Shown here piece after piece: positions 6,001 to 9,000 of a stretch of DNA of 60,442 bases (positions are counted from its first letter, which is position 1; each line of letters opens with the position of its first letter). Source of the DNA: a virus (lineage: Duplodnaviria; Heunggongvirae; Uroviricota; Caudoviricetes). The position numbers were made by a program. Location of the stretch: the IMG/VR virus record IMGVR_UViG_2660238269_000009. One strand, given 5' to 3'.

Positions 6001-9000
6001 TAATTTAGGATTTATCTTACATTATTCTTGGTGTAGTCACTCAGAACCACGACTACACCACCGGAACAGGCATCAGAAAAAACTCACTCTCATCCGGCAT
6101 GCTGTGTCACATCTGCTTACACTGTAATTTATGAGAAAAATCTCAATAGCAGTAAAAAGTAACTGTTCAGTTAAAGTGTAATATTTACCTAAGTAACTTT
6201 TCCTGTGTATTACCGTGAAGGAGCATAATTGGTTATTGGGCGTTCTCCTTCCATAAAAATACGCAGTGTCCTCCTTTCCAGATTACGGATCACCCCAGCC
6301 AACCCTGTATGCCAGTATCTCATCCGCACTGGTCAGCTTTTCCAGCTCTTTCTTCATGGTGCGCTGGCGAACGTGGATTTCCATCCCTTTGGTGAACATC
6401 GCCTGCTCTGCCGCTTCACTCAGCGCAATAAGCTCTTCTGCTGTCACCGGCACATCATTGTTTTCCGCATCCGTCCAGAAAAACGCCTCCGGAAGTTTCC
6501 CCGCTTTCGCTGCAGCCACCGACGGCTCAAGACGCGTCTGCGTTGACTTCCCGTAGTCCCATTTACGCCCATTGTGCTCAAACGTGTAGTTCGCCGCTTC
6601 CATCGCATTACGCCACGCGTTTATTTCATCGCCCTTCATCCCTCGCGCTTTCTCCGCGGTCAGCAGGTCCGTGATTTTCTCCCCGTCAAAACCCCAGCGC
6701 CCGCTCAGGTCAATTTTCCGGCTCTCCGGGGTATCCGGCACTTCTGCCACACTCTGGTTCACCGGCCACAGTAACGCAGTGTCCTTACCGTATCCCGTAA
6801 TCACACCCGGCTGTCATACACCACCTTCAGCGTCTCCGGCGAAAACAACGCCTGACACTCATACCAGTCCTGACCATCCTCAGACTTCAGGTACATCGCG
6901 CCTGCAACATCCGGCTCCGCCGGGGTGTAATACGAAAAATTTCTGATATGCATCATGTTTCCGTGCCCTCCTCCGATACCGGCACCCAGACCGGCATTTT
7001 TTCCGCACCGACGCCCCGCTTCATACCTGCCGGTGCAGCATCCGCTGCAAAGACTTTATACACCACATAATCCACCACAATACCGTCTTCCGGCCAGCGC
7101 CCTGCTGCCTCATAAACCGGCCGCAGGGACAGGGGATAGAACATATTCTCTGACGGTGAAAAAACATACTGTTCCATACAATGCCCTCAGTATCCGATCG
7201 CTTCCCATGAAAACTTGCCGTAGCATCCCCTGACTGTTATCAGAGTTACAGACACTAATGACGGATTCGACAGGGTATACATCTTAATGGCGTGGGGGTC
7301 TCCCACTGCAGACACCTGAGCATTCAGAGCAGCAACCGGAAAAGCGACAGGAAAACGGATAGAGTGCTGTGTCATAAGCTTACCATCATCCTCACTTACC
7401 TCAATACTGCCCCATTGCCGCAAACGACCGGTTACTTCATCACGCTCCCAGCCATTTACTGTCAGGCTTGCTGTTGTGGGCTTGTTTTTTGTGCTGTAAT
7501 CCACCCGCCAGTGAAAACGTTGTGTGTCTCCGTAAACTGTACAGGTACAGACCGTGCCGTTCAGAAAACCATCGCCACCGTATTCGCCGATGGTGACCCG
7601 GACTATGGCTGCGTTATACGTCCCCATCACCTCAATGGCGCAGCCTCCCAGATTGAGTTTTCCCGGTCCGACATCCGTGATGACCTTATTAAATTCCGCA
7701 AGCAGTGATGCCTTCATCATCCAGTAAGGCTGGTCAAATGCCCCCTTTTCTTTCAGCCAGGCCACAAACTCACTCGTGGTCCATTCACCGGTCTCCGTAT
7801 GAATGTCCCGCCCGTATACTCTGGCTGCTCCCACGGTATTCAGAAACTTCACCTTATCCGGGATATCGTCACCGTTTTTCGCTTTCTCCAGGCATCCGTC
7901 CGCTTTGTCCATTGCCGCTTTCACCGCTTTCGGGGTGGCTGCCTTCGTTTCATCATCACTGTCCGTTGCGCTGCTTAACTGCACAATTCCCTTCTGTGCC
8001 GTCGTCGCATCCGGCCCTCCCGGCTCGCCTTTTTCGCCCTTCTCTCCCCGTTCACCTTTCACACCCTGAAGCCCCTGTGGTCCTGTCTCACCACGCTCAC
8101 CCTTTGGCCCCCGCTCGCCGGTATCGCCTTTTGGCCCGGGAATACCCTGCGGCCCGGTGTCCCCCTTATCCCCCTTCGGTCCCGCGCATTCTCTGCCCGT
8201 TTTTTTGCCTCCTCCGCACTCGCCGCTGACGCTTCCGCACGTTTCAGGATTTCCGCTGCCACCGCTTCCAGCTCTGCAAGGGCTTTCGGGTAATACTGTG
8301 CGTCTTCCAGGTCCATCAGAAATTTATTCAGCGTTCCCGGTGCAGAATCCGCCTTCACCAGAATGTCACCCACATATGACGGCGCGTACCCTTCCGTGTT
8401 CAGCGTCACCCGGTACAACCCCGGCTCAACATCCATACTGTAACTGCCGGTTTCCCCGGCAGACCATACGCCACCGTGGTGACAATCACCGTCTCCGTTG
8501 TGCGTCGCGCTTTCAGCTCTATCGTGCATCCCGGTACCGCTTTTCCCGTACCATCCTTCAGCACACCCGATATTCTGACTGTCATGGATTTCCCCCATAA
8601 AAAAACCGCAGTACCGGTTTCCCGGCCTGCGGTAAAATTTGTGGTTTGTTGGTGTTAAAACGGTGCCATCCGGCTGACCACCCTCAGCAACCGGTCGGCG
8701 GGGGATATTCTCCCCCGCCACGGTTTCTTACTGCTTACACTGTAAGAACGCCGCAATCTCCGCGCCCGCTATCCGGAACCGGAACTCGCACAGTGAACTG
8801 TGGGTGATCCAGATAATGAGCACTACCGTGATACAAATCACGGTGGTTTTTAACGGTTTTTGCGACATAAACGCTTGCTCCTTTTACGGAGAGGCGCTAA
8901 CCTTCCACTTGTTGAAGGTAGGAACGTCAGGCCTCGGGTTAAACATGAATGTTTGTCCGGGGCCTTTTCACATCCGGCCTTCAGGTGCTCCCTCCGGCCA

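What the first reader, a model, noticed from the sequence alone, without database searches (positions are those of the whole stretch)
8728..8868. Unannotated hok-like toxin gene in the position lambda uses for lom
A 46-aa Hok-family reading frame lies between J and the side tail fibre gene. It is below the ORF-track size cutoff. Hok loci carry an overlapping mok frame and an antisense sok RNA, so the region 8869-9066 may hold these.
Basis: partly seen in the sequence, partly recalled or inferred. Interest (0 to 1): 0.45.

Follow-up and report, generated by a model that had tools for sequence, protein, structure and literature searches.

The report
Prophage hok/sok toxin-antitoxin module
The small reading frame is a real and apparently intact Hok membrane-toxin gene with its antisense Sok RNA, sitting in an E. 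coli prophage where phage lambda carries lom, but this exact toxin is already annotated and catalogued, so the finding is correct and ordinary.

Summary
Window 8728-8868 (-) encodes a 46-aa Hok/Gef peptide (Pfam 43.5 bits, cutoff 22). It lies between gpJ (stop at 9067) and the side tail fibre start (8585), which is the slot lambda uses for lom.

The flanks hold most of a hok/sok-type type I toxin-antitoxin module:
- a hok promoter, and a 5' tac element that pairs with a 3' fbi element, supported by compensatory changes
- an SD/anti-SD hairpin and a 3' protective hairpin
- a terminator
- on the + strand, a predicted ~60-nt Sok RNA (about 8910-8969) with an R1/sokC-like promoter and a hairpin terminator that is more stable on that strand in 15/15 variants

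No conserved mok frame exists in this subfamily.

The gene is not new. The identical 481 bp occur in at least 14 STEC chromosomes, where PGAP calls it "Hok/Gef family protein". The exact peptide is in a 2026 Hok catalogue (cluster 79), and a variant differing by one residue was toxic when expressed.

Three smaller points appear undescribed:
- the window-type allele sits in the J-stf slot in 34/36 loci
- mok is absent
- a 26-nt hypervariable Sok-recognition segment differs between co-resident copies

Interest is low to moderate.

The parts
8728..8868 (-). hok coding sequence: 46 aa plus stop, an N-terminal membrane helix and a C-terminal LCE...AAFLQCKQ domain
   Evidence: ORF. Pfam HOK_GEF 43.5 bits. 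The exact peptide is sequence 1562 in the Hok catalogue. dN/dS 0.16-0.58.
9023..9051 (-). Predicted hok promoter: -35 TTGCCG (9051-9046), 17-nt spacer, -10 TACATT (9028-9023). The start site is about G9016.
   Evidence: Read from the sequence. The -10 hexamer TA[CGA]A[ATG]T lies at a fixed distance from GGGTGCC in all relatives. It is too weak for the consensus scanner. Predicted only.
8599..9016 (-). Predicted full-length hok mRNA (~418 nt), from the tac 5' end to the terminator
   Evidence: The segment 9016-8658 folds at -167 kcal/mol, z = -6.96. The leader 9016-8857 matches Rfam RF01794 at 48.5 bits, E 1.7e-9, below the gathering score of 59.
9002..9016 (-). tac element (5' GGGUGCCUUUGGCUG), which pairs with fbi in the full-length RNA
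   Evidence: MFE pairing 9015-9002 with 8662-8676. The helix has 4 pairs with compensatory changes and 92.8% of cells paired.
8662..8677 (-). fbi element (UCAGCCGGAUGGCACC), the 3' partner of tac
8875..8903 (+). Predicted sok promoter: -35 TTGCTC (8875-8880), 17-nt spacer, -10 TAACCT (8898-8903). The -35 overlaps the complement of the hok SD region.
   Evidence: Same layout as K-12 sokC (TTGACC-17-CACTCT, annotated 5' end 7 nt after the -10). It also matches my reading of R1 (TTGCGC-17-TATCCT) in the R1-type sequence retrieved. The hexamers are conserved in the alignments. Predicted only.
8910..8969 (+). Predicted Sok antisense RNA (~60 nt): a single-stranded 5' tail (8910-8929), a hairpin (8930-8964) and a U-run (8965-8968)
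   Evidence: Ends transferred from the annotated sokC. Hairpin fold. The hairpin is more stable on this strand in 15/15 distinct variants, mean -21.0 vs -12.3 kcal/mol.
8904..8930 (.). Hypervariable segment, corresponding to the Sok 5' tail and its target in hok mRNA. It is the putative specificity determinant.
   Evidence: It is the most variable 26-nt window in two independent groups: 0.253 vs median 0.021, and 0.269 vs 0.035 differences per site. Co-resident copies mostly differ here. It is orthogonal to the window's second locus: cognate -39/-42, cross -10/-15 kcal/mol.
8878..8891 (-). hok Shine-Dalgarno AAGGAG (8883-8878), held in a local hairpin with the anti-SD CUCC (8891-8888)
   Evidence: Predicted pairing in both the full-length and the 3'-trimmed folds. 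The helix is 82.8% paired across relatives, without double changes.
8884..8946 (-). Candidate leader ORF (20 codons, ATG 8946, TAA 8886-8884). It ends immediately before the hok SD. It is the only mok-like frame in this copy and is not conserved.
   Evidence: It has no clear SD, and its ATG lies in the hairpin loop. In near-identical relatives the frame stops early or runs on, because the variable segment changes length. Other subgroups have CTG or ACG at this position.
8697..8719 (-). 3' hairpin GGCGGGGGA-loop-UCCCCCGCC. In R1 the last 3' stem-loop protects the processed mRNA from exonucleases.
   Evidence: 5 of 9 pairs show compensatory changes and 99.6% of cells are paired. The R1 role is described in PMC9841398.
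8599..8632 (-). Intrinsic terminator: a compound hairpin followed by T7, lying just before the stf RBS and ATG (8585)
   Evidence: Sequence and fold. Lambda has an equivalent hairpin plus T-run at the lom-stf junction, where DNA homology with lambda resumes.
9067..12591 (-). Upstream flank: gpJ tail tip/central fibre gene. The PGAP start in the identical relative corresponds to about 12540.
7187..8585 (-). Downstream flank: side tail fibre (stf-like) gene. In this window two single-G deletions split it into three frames.

Best explanation
Window ~8599-9051 is a self-contained hok/sok-type type I toxin-antitoxin module. It is carried as a moron between gpJ and stf of a lambdoid E. coli prophage, in place of lom.

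Shown here by sequence and comparison:
- A Hok/Gef peptide under purifying selection.
- A leader homologous to other hok leaders.
- A long-range 5'/3' (tac/fbi) helix and a 3' hairpin, both maintained by compensatory changes.
- An antisense hairpin plus U-run that is stable specifically on the + strand.
- Promoter-like hexamers for both RNAs, at the positions used by sokC and R1 sok.

Inferred from the R1 paradigm (PMC9841398, PMC8621323):
- A weak constitutive promoter makes a stable, closed, untranslatable full-length hok mRNA.
- Slow 3' trimming removes fbi. The 5' end then refolds and the Sok target opens (predicted P(unpaired) rises from 0.14 to 0.45).
- Abundant but unstable Sok (~60 nt) pairs through its 5' tail, and the duplex is destroyed by RNase III.
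- If Sok supply stops, Hok is translated, inserts in the inner membrane and kills or lyses the cell. Sok supply would stop on loss of the prophage DNA or on shut-off of host transcription by a superinfecting phage.

Because the module lies inside the late operon, antiterminated late transcripts running through it during induction should out-titrate Sok. Hok would then add to lysis, as shown for hokW-sokW.

Unlike R1, this subfamily has no conserved mok leader frame. Coupling of Sok to hok translation therefore probably works through RNA decay and structure rather than through blocking a leader peptide.
For: Identity:
- Pfam HOK_GEF above cutoff.
- PGAP 'Hok/Gef family protein' on identical DNA.
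- The exact peptide is in the Hok catalogue, and the Q46R variant and the 933W-type relative were both toxic.

RNA architecture:
- Fold z = -6.96 with tac/fbi pairing.
- On 29 relatives, 92.8% of cells paired against 33-53% when partners are slid.
- 82 double-change cells against 0-12 (slid) and 28.5 +/- 4.4 (shuffled, 0/500).
- 4 compensatory pairs in tac/fbi and 5 in the 3' hairpin.

Sok:
- Leader hit to RF01794.
- Promoter layout and ends transferred from the annotated sokC.
- Strand-specific hairpin stability in 15/15 variants.

Refolding after fbi removal.

Intactness: every element is present, unlike the window's second hok locus, which is split by IS186.

Stable slot: 34/36 window-type loci lie between J and stf although the J alleles differ.
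Against: - No RNA or protein data exist for this locus. Both promoters match the sigma-70 consensus at only 3-4 of 6 positions per hexamer and were missed by the scanner.
- The Rfam score is below the gathering threshold: 48.5 < 59.
- NCBIfam HokA and Hok models score below their cutoffs: 38 < 89 and 37 < 73.
- In R1, mok translation up to the hok SD is mandatory, and no conserved mok is found here. The route from Sok binding to translational control is therefore unproven.
- The hok SD stays paired in both predicted conformations.
- The physiological role (addiction, abortive infection or lysis aid) is not resolved by any analysis here.
- The helices tested were derived from this window's own fold, which inflates the 'paired cells' measure.
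Confidence: 0.85

Rival explanations
1. The locus is regulated exactly like R1, through a mok leader peptide that I failed to recognise. The candidates are the 20-codon ORF 8946-8884, which stops right before the hok SD and whose start lies under Sok, or a frame that starts at a non-canonical codon.
For: In this window the ORF 8946..8884 runs through the anti-SD and ends 0 nt before AAGGAG. Sok (8910-8969) would cover its start codon. In R1, translation up to the hok SD is sufficient. The GAGG that serves as the mok SD in R1 and hokC is conserved here at 8935-8932.
Against: The ORF has no usable SD, and its ATG sits in a hairpin loop. In the two commonest alleles of the same >=95% group (16 of 22 unique mRNAs) the frame stops 20 nt or more before the SD. 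In others it runs 31 or 69 codons. Other subgroups have CTG or ACG in place of ATG. About half of 53 unique mRNAs have no ATG/GTG/TTG/CTG frame that reaches the hok SD. The variable segment changes length by non-multiples of 3. GAGG is also part of the Sok terminator stem, which explains its conservation.
Confidence: 0.2
2. The module's main job is as a lysis accessory of the phage, not as an addiction or defence module. It is transcribed chiefly as part of the late operon, and Hok acts as a holin-like helper, as reported for hokW-sokW of Sp5.
For: The module lies between J and stf on the late-gene strand. hokW-sokW deletion halved the Sp5 yield, and Sok fell while Hok rose after mitomycin C (PMC8621323). 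The slot association is stable, 34/36 loci.
Against: The module keeps its own promoter, the full tac/fbi delay machinery and its own terminator. These are features of autonomous expression in the lysogen. The same subfamily also occurs outside tail operons and in tandem arrays. hokW belongs to a different Hok cluster at a different prophage position.
Confidence: 0.3
3. The locus is an inactive remnant, like several K-12 chromosomal hok loci, and is kept only because it hitch-hikes in the prophage.
For: Many chromosomal hok loci are degenerate (PMC2887945). The window's other hok locus is disrupted by IS186, and the neighbouring stf carries frameshifts, so this prophage may be decaying.
Against: The ORF and all regulatory elements are intact. 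dN/dS < 1. Compensatory changes maintain the helices. A one-residue variant is toxic. 100% identical copies occur in many independent STEC genomes.
Confidence: 0.07

Closest known systems
Hok 'cluster 79' (Escalera-Maurer et al., bioRxiv 10.1101/2025.08.07.668861); RefSeq WP_000078852.1 'Hok/Gef family protein'
   Same: The peptide is identical (catalogue sequence 1562). PGAP annotates it at the same J-stf position in STEC chromosomes. Variant 79_1563 (Q46R) was toxic on induced expression.
   Different: Nothing differs at the protein level. The catalogue did not analyse Sok, mok or the position inside prophages.
46-aa Hok next to lom in 933W/Sp5/75-02-type Stx phages (cluster 72; YP_009226894.1 'MokW-like host killing')
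   Same: 65% aa identity and ~79% nt identity over 395 nt including the leader. It has the same tac/fbi, Sok hairpin and promoter layout, the same lack of mok and the same hypervariable segment.
   Different: It lies about 236 nt downstream of lom in short-tailed Stx phages, rather than replacing lom between J and stf.
hok/sok of plasmid R1
   Same: Hok fold signature; tac/fbi long-range pairing; a 3' protective hairpin; cis-antisense Sok with a -35/17/-10 promoter overlapping the hok SD region; a hairpin plus U-tail terminator.
   Different: 28% aa identity, and 46 vs 52 aa. There is no conserved overlapping mok, which R1 requires. It is borne on a prophage rather than a plasmid.
hokA (E. coli K-12)
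   Same: It is the closest classical homologue: 43% identity, a shared W in the helix and an AAFL.CK tail. It is the best NCBIfam hit.
   Different: The score is below the HokA equivalog cutoff (38 vs 89 bits). IS150 truncates the K-12 hokA leader, so its regulatory region cannot be compared.
hokW-sokW of Sakai prophage 5 (PMC8621323)
   Same: A prophage-borne hok/sok module. It is the only one with an experimentally shown role in phage release.
   Different: It belongs to a different cluster (51 aa, HokD/HokC-like, with an in-frame mok). It corresponds to the window's second locus at 47.6-48.0 kb, not to this one.
lambda lom
   Same: It occupies the same slot between J and stf. It is also followed by a hairpin plus T-run terminator just before the stf RBS.
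   Different: It is an unrelated outer-membrane protein (Ail/Lom family). The window has no Lom homologue.

Membership tests
Hok/Gef toxin family (Pfam PF01848) | Profile match above the curated threshold | tested here: met
   43.5 bits vs cutoff 22, E 2.4e-11, profile positions 8-42 of 42.
Hok/Gef toxin family (Pfam PF01848) | Small size (~40-55 aa), an N-terminal hydrophobic helix with conserved C and T, and a C-terminal L-C-E ... E motif | tested here: met
   46 aa. C12/T14, L26-C27-E28 and E37 align with the conserved columns and with the conserved positions reported in the catalogue.
Hok/Gef toxin family (Pfam PF01848) | Toxic to E. coli when expressed | not testable with these tools
   Not tested on this exact peptide. 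The Q46R variant 79_1563 and the relative 72_1589 were cloned. They are not among the three non-toxic constructs out of 45.
NCBIfam HokA equivalog (NF007290) / Hok subfamily (NF007279) | Score above the curated cutoff | tested here: not met
   38.2 < 89 and 37.2 < 73 bits. The peptide is a Hok-family member, but not HokA itself and not the R1-type subfamily.
[quoted passage not shown] | Cis-encoded antisense RNA (Sok) with its own promoter and terminator, overlapping the hok leader | tested here: met
   Computational only. The promoter hexamers sit at the sokC/R1 positions. A hairpin plus U-run is present, and the antisense strand is more stable in 15/15 variants. No transcript data.
[quoted passage not shown] | Long-range tac/fbi pairing that closes the full-length mRNA | tested here: met
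   Present in the MFE structure. 4 compensatory pairs, 92.8% paired.
[quoted passage not shown] | Stable 3' stem-loop upstream of fbi | tested here: met
   8697-8719. 5 compensatory pairs, 99.6% paired.
[quoted passage not shown] | mok leader frame whose translation reaches the hok SD and whose start is covered by Sok | tested here: not met
   No frame is conserved across the subfamily. About half of the unique mRNAs have none. This window has only a non-conserved 20-codon candidate without an SD.
[quoted passage not shown] | 3' processing to an active mRNA; RNase III cleavage of the Sok duplex; short Sok half-life | not testable with these tools
   The only evidence is a predicted refolding once fbi is removed.
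Rfam RF01794 'sok' | Score at or above the gathering threshold (59 bits) | tested here: not met
   48.5 bits, E 1.7e-9, full model length, on the hok-sense strand. The window's second locus scores 117 bits, K-12 hokC 118 and the R1 type 89.

The most novel reading that the evidence does not exclude
Hok clusters 72 and 79 may form a mok-less branch of the hok/sok family. In this branch Sok would control hok without a leader peptide, by duplex-triggered decay, by structure, or by blocking a standby site. The 26-nt Sok-tail/target segment (8904-8930) would act as an exchangeable, hypervariable specificity cassette. That would let several otherwise near-identical copies coexist without cross-talk in poly-lysogenic STEC. 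The J-stf placement would couple Hok release to late read-through transcription.
Probability: 0.3. Interest if true: 0.45.

Novelty: already known. Interest (0 to 1): 0.2.

Why it matters
The practical value is small. It shows that an annotation track with a size cutoff misses a potent, intact membrane toxin and its antisense RNA inside the tail operon of an STEC prophage. It also shows that the lom slot is a cargo site that can hold a toxin-antitoxin module instead of an outer-membrane protein.

For type I toxin-antitoxin biology, two by-products could be followed up. One is a Hok subfamily with no conserved mok. The other is a sharply localised hypervariable Sok-recognition segment that differs between co-resident copies. 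Together they bear on how up to 14 hok loci (E. coli O157 Sakai, PMC2887945) avoid cross-regulation, and on whether mok coupling is universal.

None of this overturns current understanding.

Tried and rejected
1. I first read the ~79% match to 933W/Sp5 phages as the published hokW-sokW. That was wrong. HokW is a 51-aa HokD-like peptide (primers and text of PMC8621323). The match is to a different 46-aa hok beside lom.
2. ATG 8946 and the 54-codon frame 9014..8850 were considered as mok. Neither is conserved.
3. The consensus promoter/terminator scanner found no promoters, and on the + strand only the 3' hairpin. The elements were placed by homology instead.
It was rerun with an alignment.
5. 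Genome contigs gave only 5 loci because it holds one genome per species. Two of them, a Planococcaceae MAG and a Vagococcus assembly, look like enterobacterial contamination.
6. RNAalifold on the whole mRNA did not recover the Sok-region hairpin, because of indels and C-A mismatches on the sense strand. That hairpin was analysed separately on both strands.
7. A literature search for hok together with lom, moron or tail fibre found nothing describing this placement.
8. In one search I labelled GAGG as 8934-8931. The correct coordinates are 8935-8932, and the conclusion is unaffected.
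Full report
**Observation.** Window 8728-8868 on the minus strand is an ATG-initiated 46-codon frame encoding MSQKPLKTTVICITVVLIIWITHSSLCEFRFRIAGAEIAAFLQCKQ. 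It matches Pfam HOK_GEF at 43.5 bits against a gathering score of 22 (E 2.4e-11). Upstream on the same strand the J tail-tip gene ends at 9067. Downstream a lambda-Stf-like N-terminus (MTVRISGVLKDGTGK...) starts at 8585. Lambda itself has J, lom and stf (orf-401) in that order. The window's J C-terminus is 42% identical to lambda's and its Stf N-terminus 62% identical. DNA homology with lambda resumes 20 nt before the stf ATG. No Lom homologue is detectable in the window. The observation and its placement are therefore correct.

**Is it already known?** Yes.
- The 481 bp from 8590 to 9070 are 100% identical in at least 14 complete STEC chromosomes. There PGAP annotates WP_000078852.1, 'Hok/Gef family protein', between gpJ and a prophage tail fibre gene.
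- GenBank phage 1720a-02 carries a 97% identical copy labelled hypothetical.
- A 2026 preprint cataloguing 1747 unique Hok peptides (bioRxiv 10.1101/2025.08.07.668861) lists this exact peptide (sequence 1562).
- The authors cloned a representative of its 60%-identity cluster, 79_1563, which differs only at the last residue (Q46R).
- They also cloned the 933W-type relative 72_1589.
- The text states that 42 of 45 constructs were toxic and names the three that were not. Neither of these two is among them.
- That paper also reports that hok is enriched in prophages (23% observed vs 5% expected). It did not analyse Sok, mok or the position within prophages.
- E. coli O157 Sakai was already known to carry 14 Hok/Gef genes (PMC2887945).

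**A correction to an easy misreading.** The ~79% nucleotide match in 933W/Sp5-type Stx phages is not the published hokW-sokW. HokW is a 51-aa HokD/HokC-like peptide (PMC8621323). The match is to a separate 46-aa hok that lies about 236 nt downstream of lom in those phages. It is annotated 'MokW-like host killing' in Shigella phage 75/02 Stx. The HokW/HokD type corresponds to a second hok locus in this same window (see below).

**Anatomy of the sense strand (minus strand).** The following elements can be read in order.
- A promoter-like pair: TTGCCG (9051-9046), 17 nt, TACATT (9028-9023). It precedes GGGTGCC at 9016. The -10 hexamer keeps T-A...T at a fixed distance from GGGTGCC in all relatives.
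- The RNA from 9016 to 8658, which folds at -167 kcal/mol with z = -6.96. Its 5' end (9015-9002) pairs with 8662-8676. This is the tac/fbi closure that defines hok mRNAs.
- The hok SD AAGGAG (8883-8878), which pairs locally with CUCC (8891-8888).
- A GC-rich hairpin (8719-8697) after the stop codon.
- The fbi element.
- A compound hairpin plus T7 terminator (8632-8599), lying just before the stf RBS.

**Comparative support for the RNA structure.** I tested the helices on 29 non-redundant relatives drawn from IMG/VR, GTDB genomes and GenBank.
- 92.8% of cells form standard pairs, against 33-53% when the 3' partners are slid by 1-3 columns.
- 82 cells carry changes on both sides, against 0-12 in the slid controls and 28.5 +/- 4.4 in shuffles (0 of 500 reach the observed value).
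- The tac/fbi helix has four compensatory pairs and the 3' hairpin has five (an independent RNAalifold run is).
- The helices were derived from this window's own fold, which inflates the paired-cell figure but not the double-change counts.
- With fbi removed, the predicted fold moves the 5' end onto 8983-8999. The mean unpaired probability of the Sok target rises from 0.14 to 0.45, mirroring the R1 activation model.

**Sok (plus strand).**
- The leader 9016-8857 matches Rfam RF01794 over its full length at 48.5 bits (E 1.7e-9), which is below the gathering score of 59.
- That Rfam model is built on the hok-sense strand. In K-12 it hits the hokC strand, while the annotated sokC lies on the opposite strand.
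- I transferred the sokC annotation through the alignment. On the plus strand this places TTGCTC (8875-8880), 17 nt and TAACCT (8898-8903), with a start near 8910.
- Downstream follow a ~20-nt tail, a hairpin at 8930-8964 and UUUU at 8965-8968, giving an RNA of about 60 nt.
- The hairpin is more stable on the plus strand than on the sense strand in all 15 distinct variants (mean -21.0 vs -12.3 kcal/mol). The difference arises because G-U pairs on one strand become C-A mismatches on the other. This is strand-specific evidence for a structured antisense RNA.

**mok.** In R1, mok translation up to the hok SD is required (PMC9841398). In hokC and in the window's second locus, mok is an in-frame upstream ATG. 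Here I found no conserved equivalent.
- About half of 53 unique mRNAs of the subfamily have no ATG/GTG/TTG/CTG frame that reaches the hok SD.
- The variable leader segment changes length by non-multiples of three among near-identical loci.
- This window does have a 20-codon ORF (8946-8884) that ends immediately before the hok SD and whose start lies under Sok. It has no SD, and its ATG sits in a hairpin loop.
- Its frame is not conserved. It stops early in the two commonest alleles of the same group and runs 31 or 69 codons in others. Other subgroups have CTG or ACG at that position.
- I therefore score the mok feature as not met, and keep a cryptic leader as a 0.2 rival.

**A localised hypervariable segment.**
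- Among 22 unique mRNAs whose Hok is at least 95% identical to the window's, the 26 nt at 8930-8904 differ at 0.253 per site. The median 26-nt window differs at 0.021.
- The flanking leader blocks, which were not used to define the group, differ at 0.005-0.022.
- The same position is the most variable in the independent 933W-type group (0.269 vs 0.035).
- The segment corresponds to the Sok 5' tail and its target, and five discrete alleles occur in the window-type group.
- In 7 of 9 genomes or contigs with several copies, all copies carry different alleles. This includes three tandem copies on one contig.
- The two predicted Sok tails in this window are orthogonal: cognate duplexes of -39 and -42 kcal/mol against -10 and -15 for cross pairs.
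- This fits selection, or recombinational shuffling, for non-cross-reacting antitoxins. It does not prove it.

**Genomic context of the family.**
- Of 36 loci with a window-type Hok, 34 lie between a J homologue and an Stf N-terminus, even though the J C-termini range from 46 to 100% identity.
- Of 42 loci in the <=65% identity band (mostly 933W-type), 34 lie just after lom.
- The intermediate types lie elsewhere, sometimes in tandem arrays.
- Lambda's lom and this hok module both end in a hairpin plus T-run immediately before the stf RBS. The exchanged cargo is therefore the stretch between the J stop and that terminator.

**Mechanism and role.** I commit to an intact hok/sok-type module (confidence 0.85).
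- A stable, closed hok mRNA is made from a weak promoter.
- It is slowly activated at the 3' end.
- Repression comes from a short-lived Sok that pairs through its 5' tail.
- When Sok runs out, Hok causes membrane damage.

These steps are inferred from R1 and hokW-sokW, not shown here. Three roles are plausible: prophage addiction, abortive infection against transcription-shutting phages, and help with lysis when late transcripts run through the module and titrate Sok. The last role is directly supported only for hokW-sokW, which belongs to a different cluster. A remnant reading is unlikely (0.07), given the intact elements, dN/dS of 0.16-0.58 and the toxicity of a one-residue variant.

**Verdict.** The finding is already known. 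The mok-less architecture, the hypervariable recognition segment and the J-stf slot fidelity are modest additions worth a note, not a discovery. Interest: 0.2.

Noticed in passing
window 46190-47962 (-): A second hok/sok locus of the HokD/HokW/HokC type. hok is at 47640-47792 with an in-frame mok ATG at 47849, and Rfam sok scores 117 bits at 47787-47962. A 1337-bp IS186-like element (46278-47614) splits its 3' hairpin. The element has perfect 23-bp inverted repeats and a ~11-bp target duplication. It displaces fbi and the terminator to about 46190-46270. The insertion point is the same as in K-12 hokC/IS186A. One window thus carries two hok modules with orthogonal Sok tails, one intact and one interrupted.
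   Followed up: partly
window ~8458 and ~8184 (stf gene, 7187-8585, -): The side tail fibre gene is broken into three frames by two single-G deletions in G runs. The comparison is with an otherwise 99.3% identical, intact 467-aa gene in NZ_CP027312.1. This is either real pseudogenisation or homopolymer sequencing error.
   Followed up: partly
L044 2858-4216; L046 and L050 ~3850-4650: IMG/VR prophage contigs carry tandem arrays of two or three complete hok/sok modules about 495 bp apart. Each module has a different Sok-target segment. The Hok catalogue reports that only 0.2% of Hok-carrying phages encode three copies.
   Followed up: partly
L004 502-654 vs annotated sokC 553-611; window 8857-9016: Rfam RF01794, named 'sok antitoxin', is modelled on the hok-sense strand. 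It runs from the mRNA 5' end to the hok start codon. Its hits therefore mark the hok leader, not the Sok transcript strand.
   Followed up: yes
window 8599-8632 and lambda 19586-19649 (L091 1087-1150): The hairpin plus T-run terminator and the RBS just upstream of stf are shared in form between lambda (after lom) and this prophage (after hok). A fixed downstream boundary of the cargo slot is therefore likely.
   Followed up: partly
L007 (Planococcaceae MAG contig) and L008 (Vagococcus sp. assembly): Enterobacterial-type hok/sok loci (63% Hok identity) turn up in assemblies labelled as Firmicutes. They are probably contaminant contigs and not cross-phylum transfer.
   Followed up: no
window 37480-37692 (-), 41105-41353 (-), 55855-55906 (+): Rfam hits above the gathering score: STnc100 sRNA, three tRNA genes in a cluster, and DicF. 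These are typical furniture of a lambdoid or Qin-like prophage.
   Followed up: no
L039 3851-4216: One window-type relative has a GTG start for hok and a ~20-nt deletion in the leader that removes the local tac hairpin. It may be a decaying copy.
   Followed up: no
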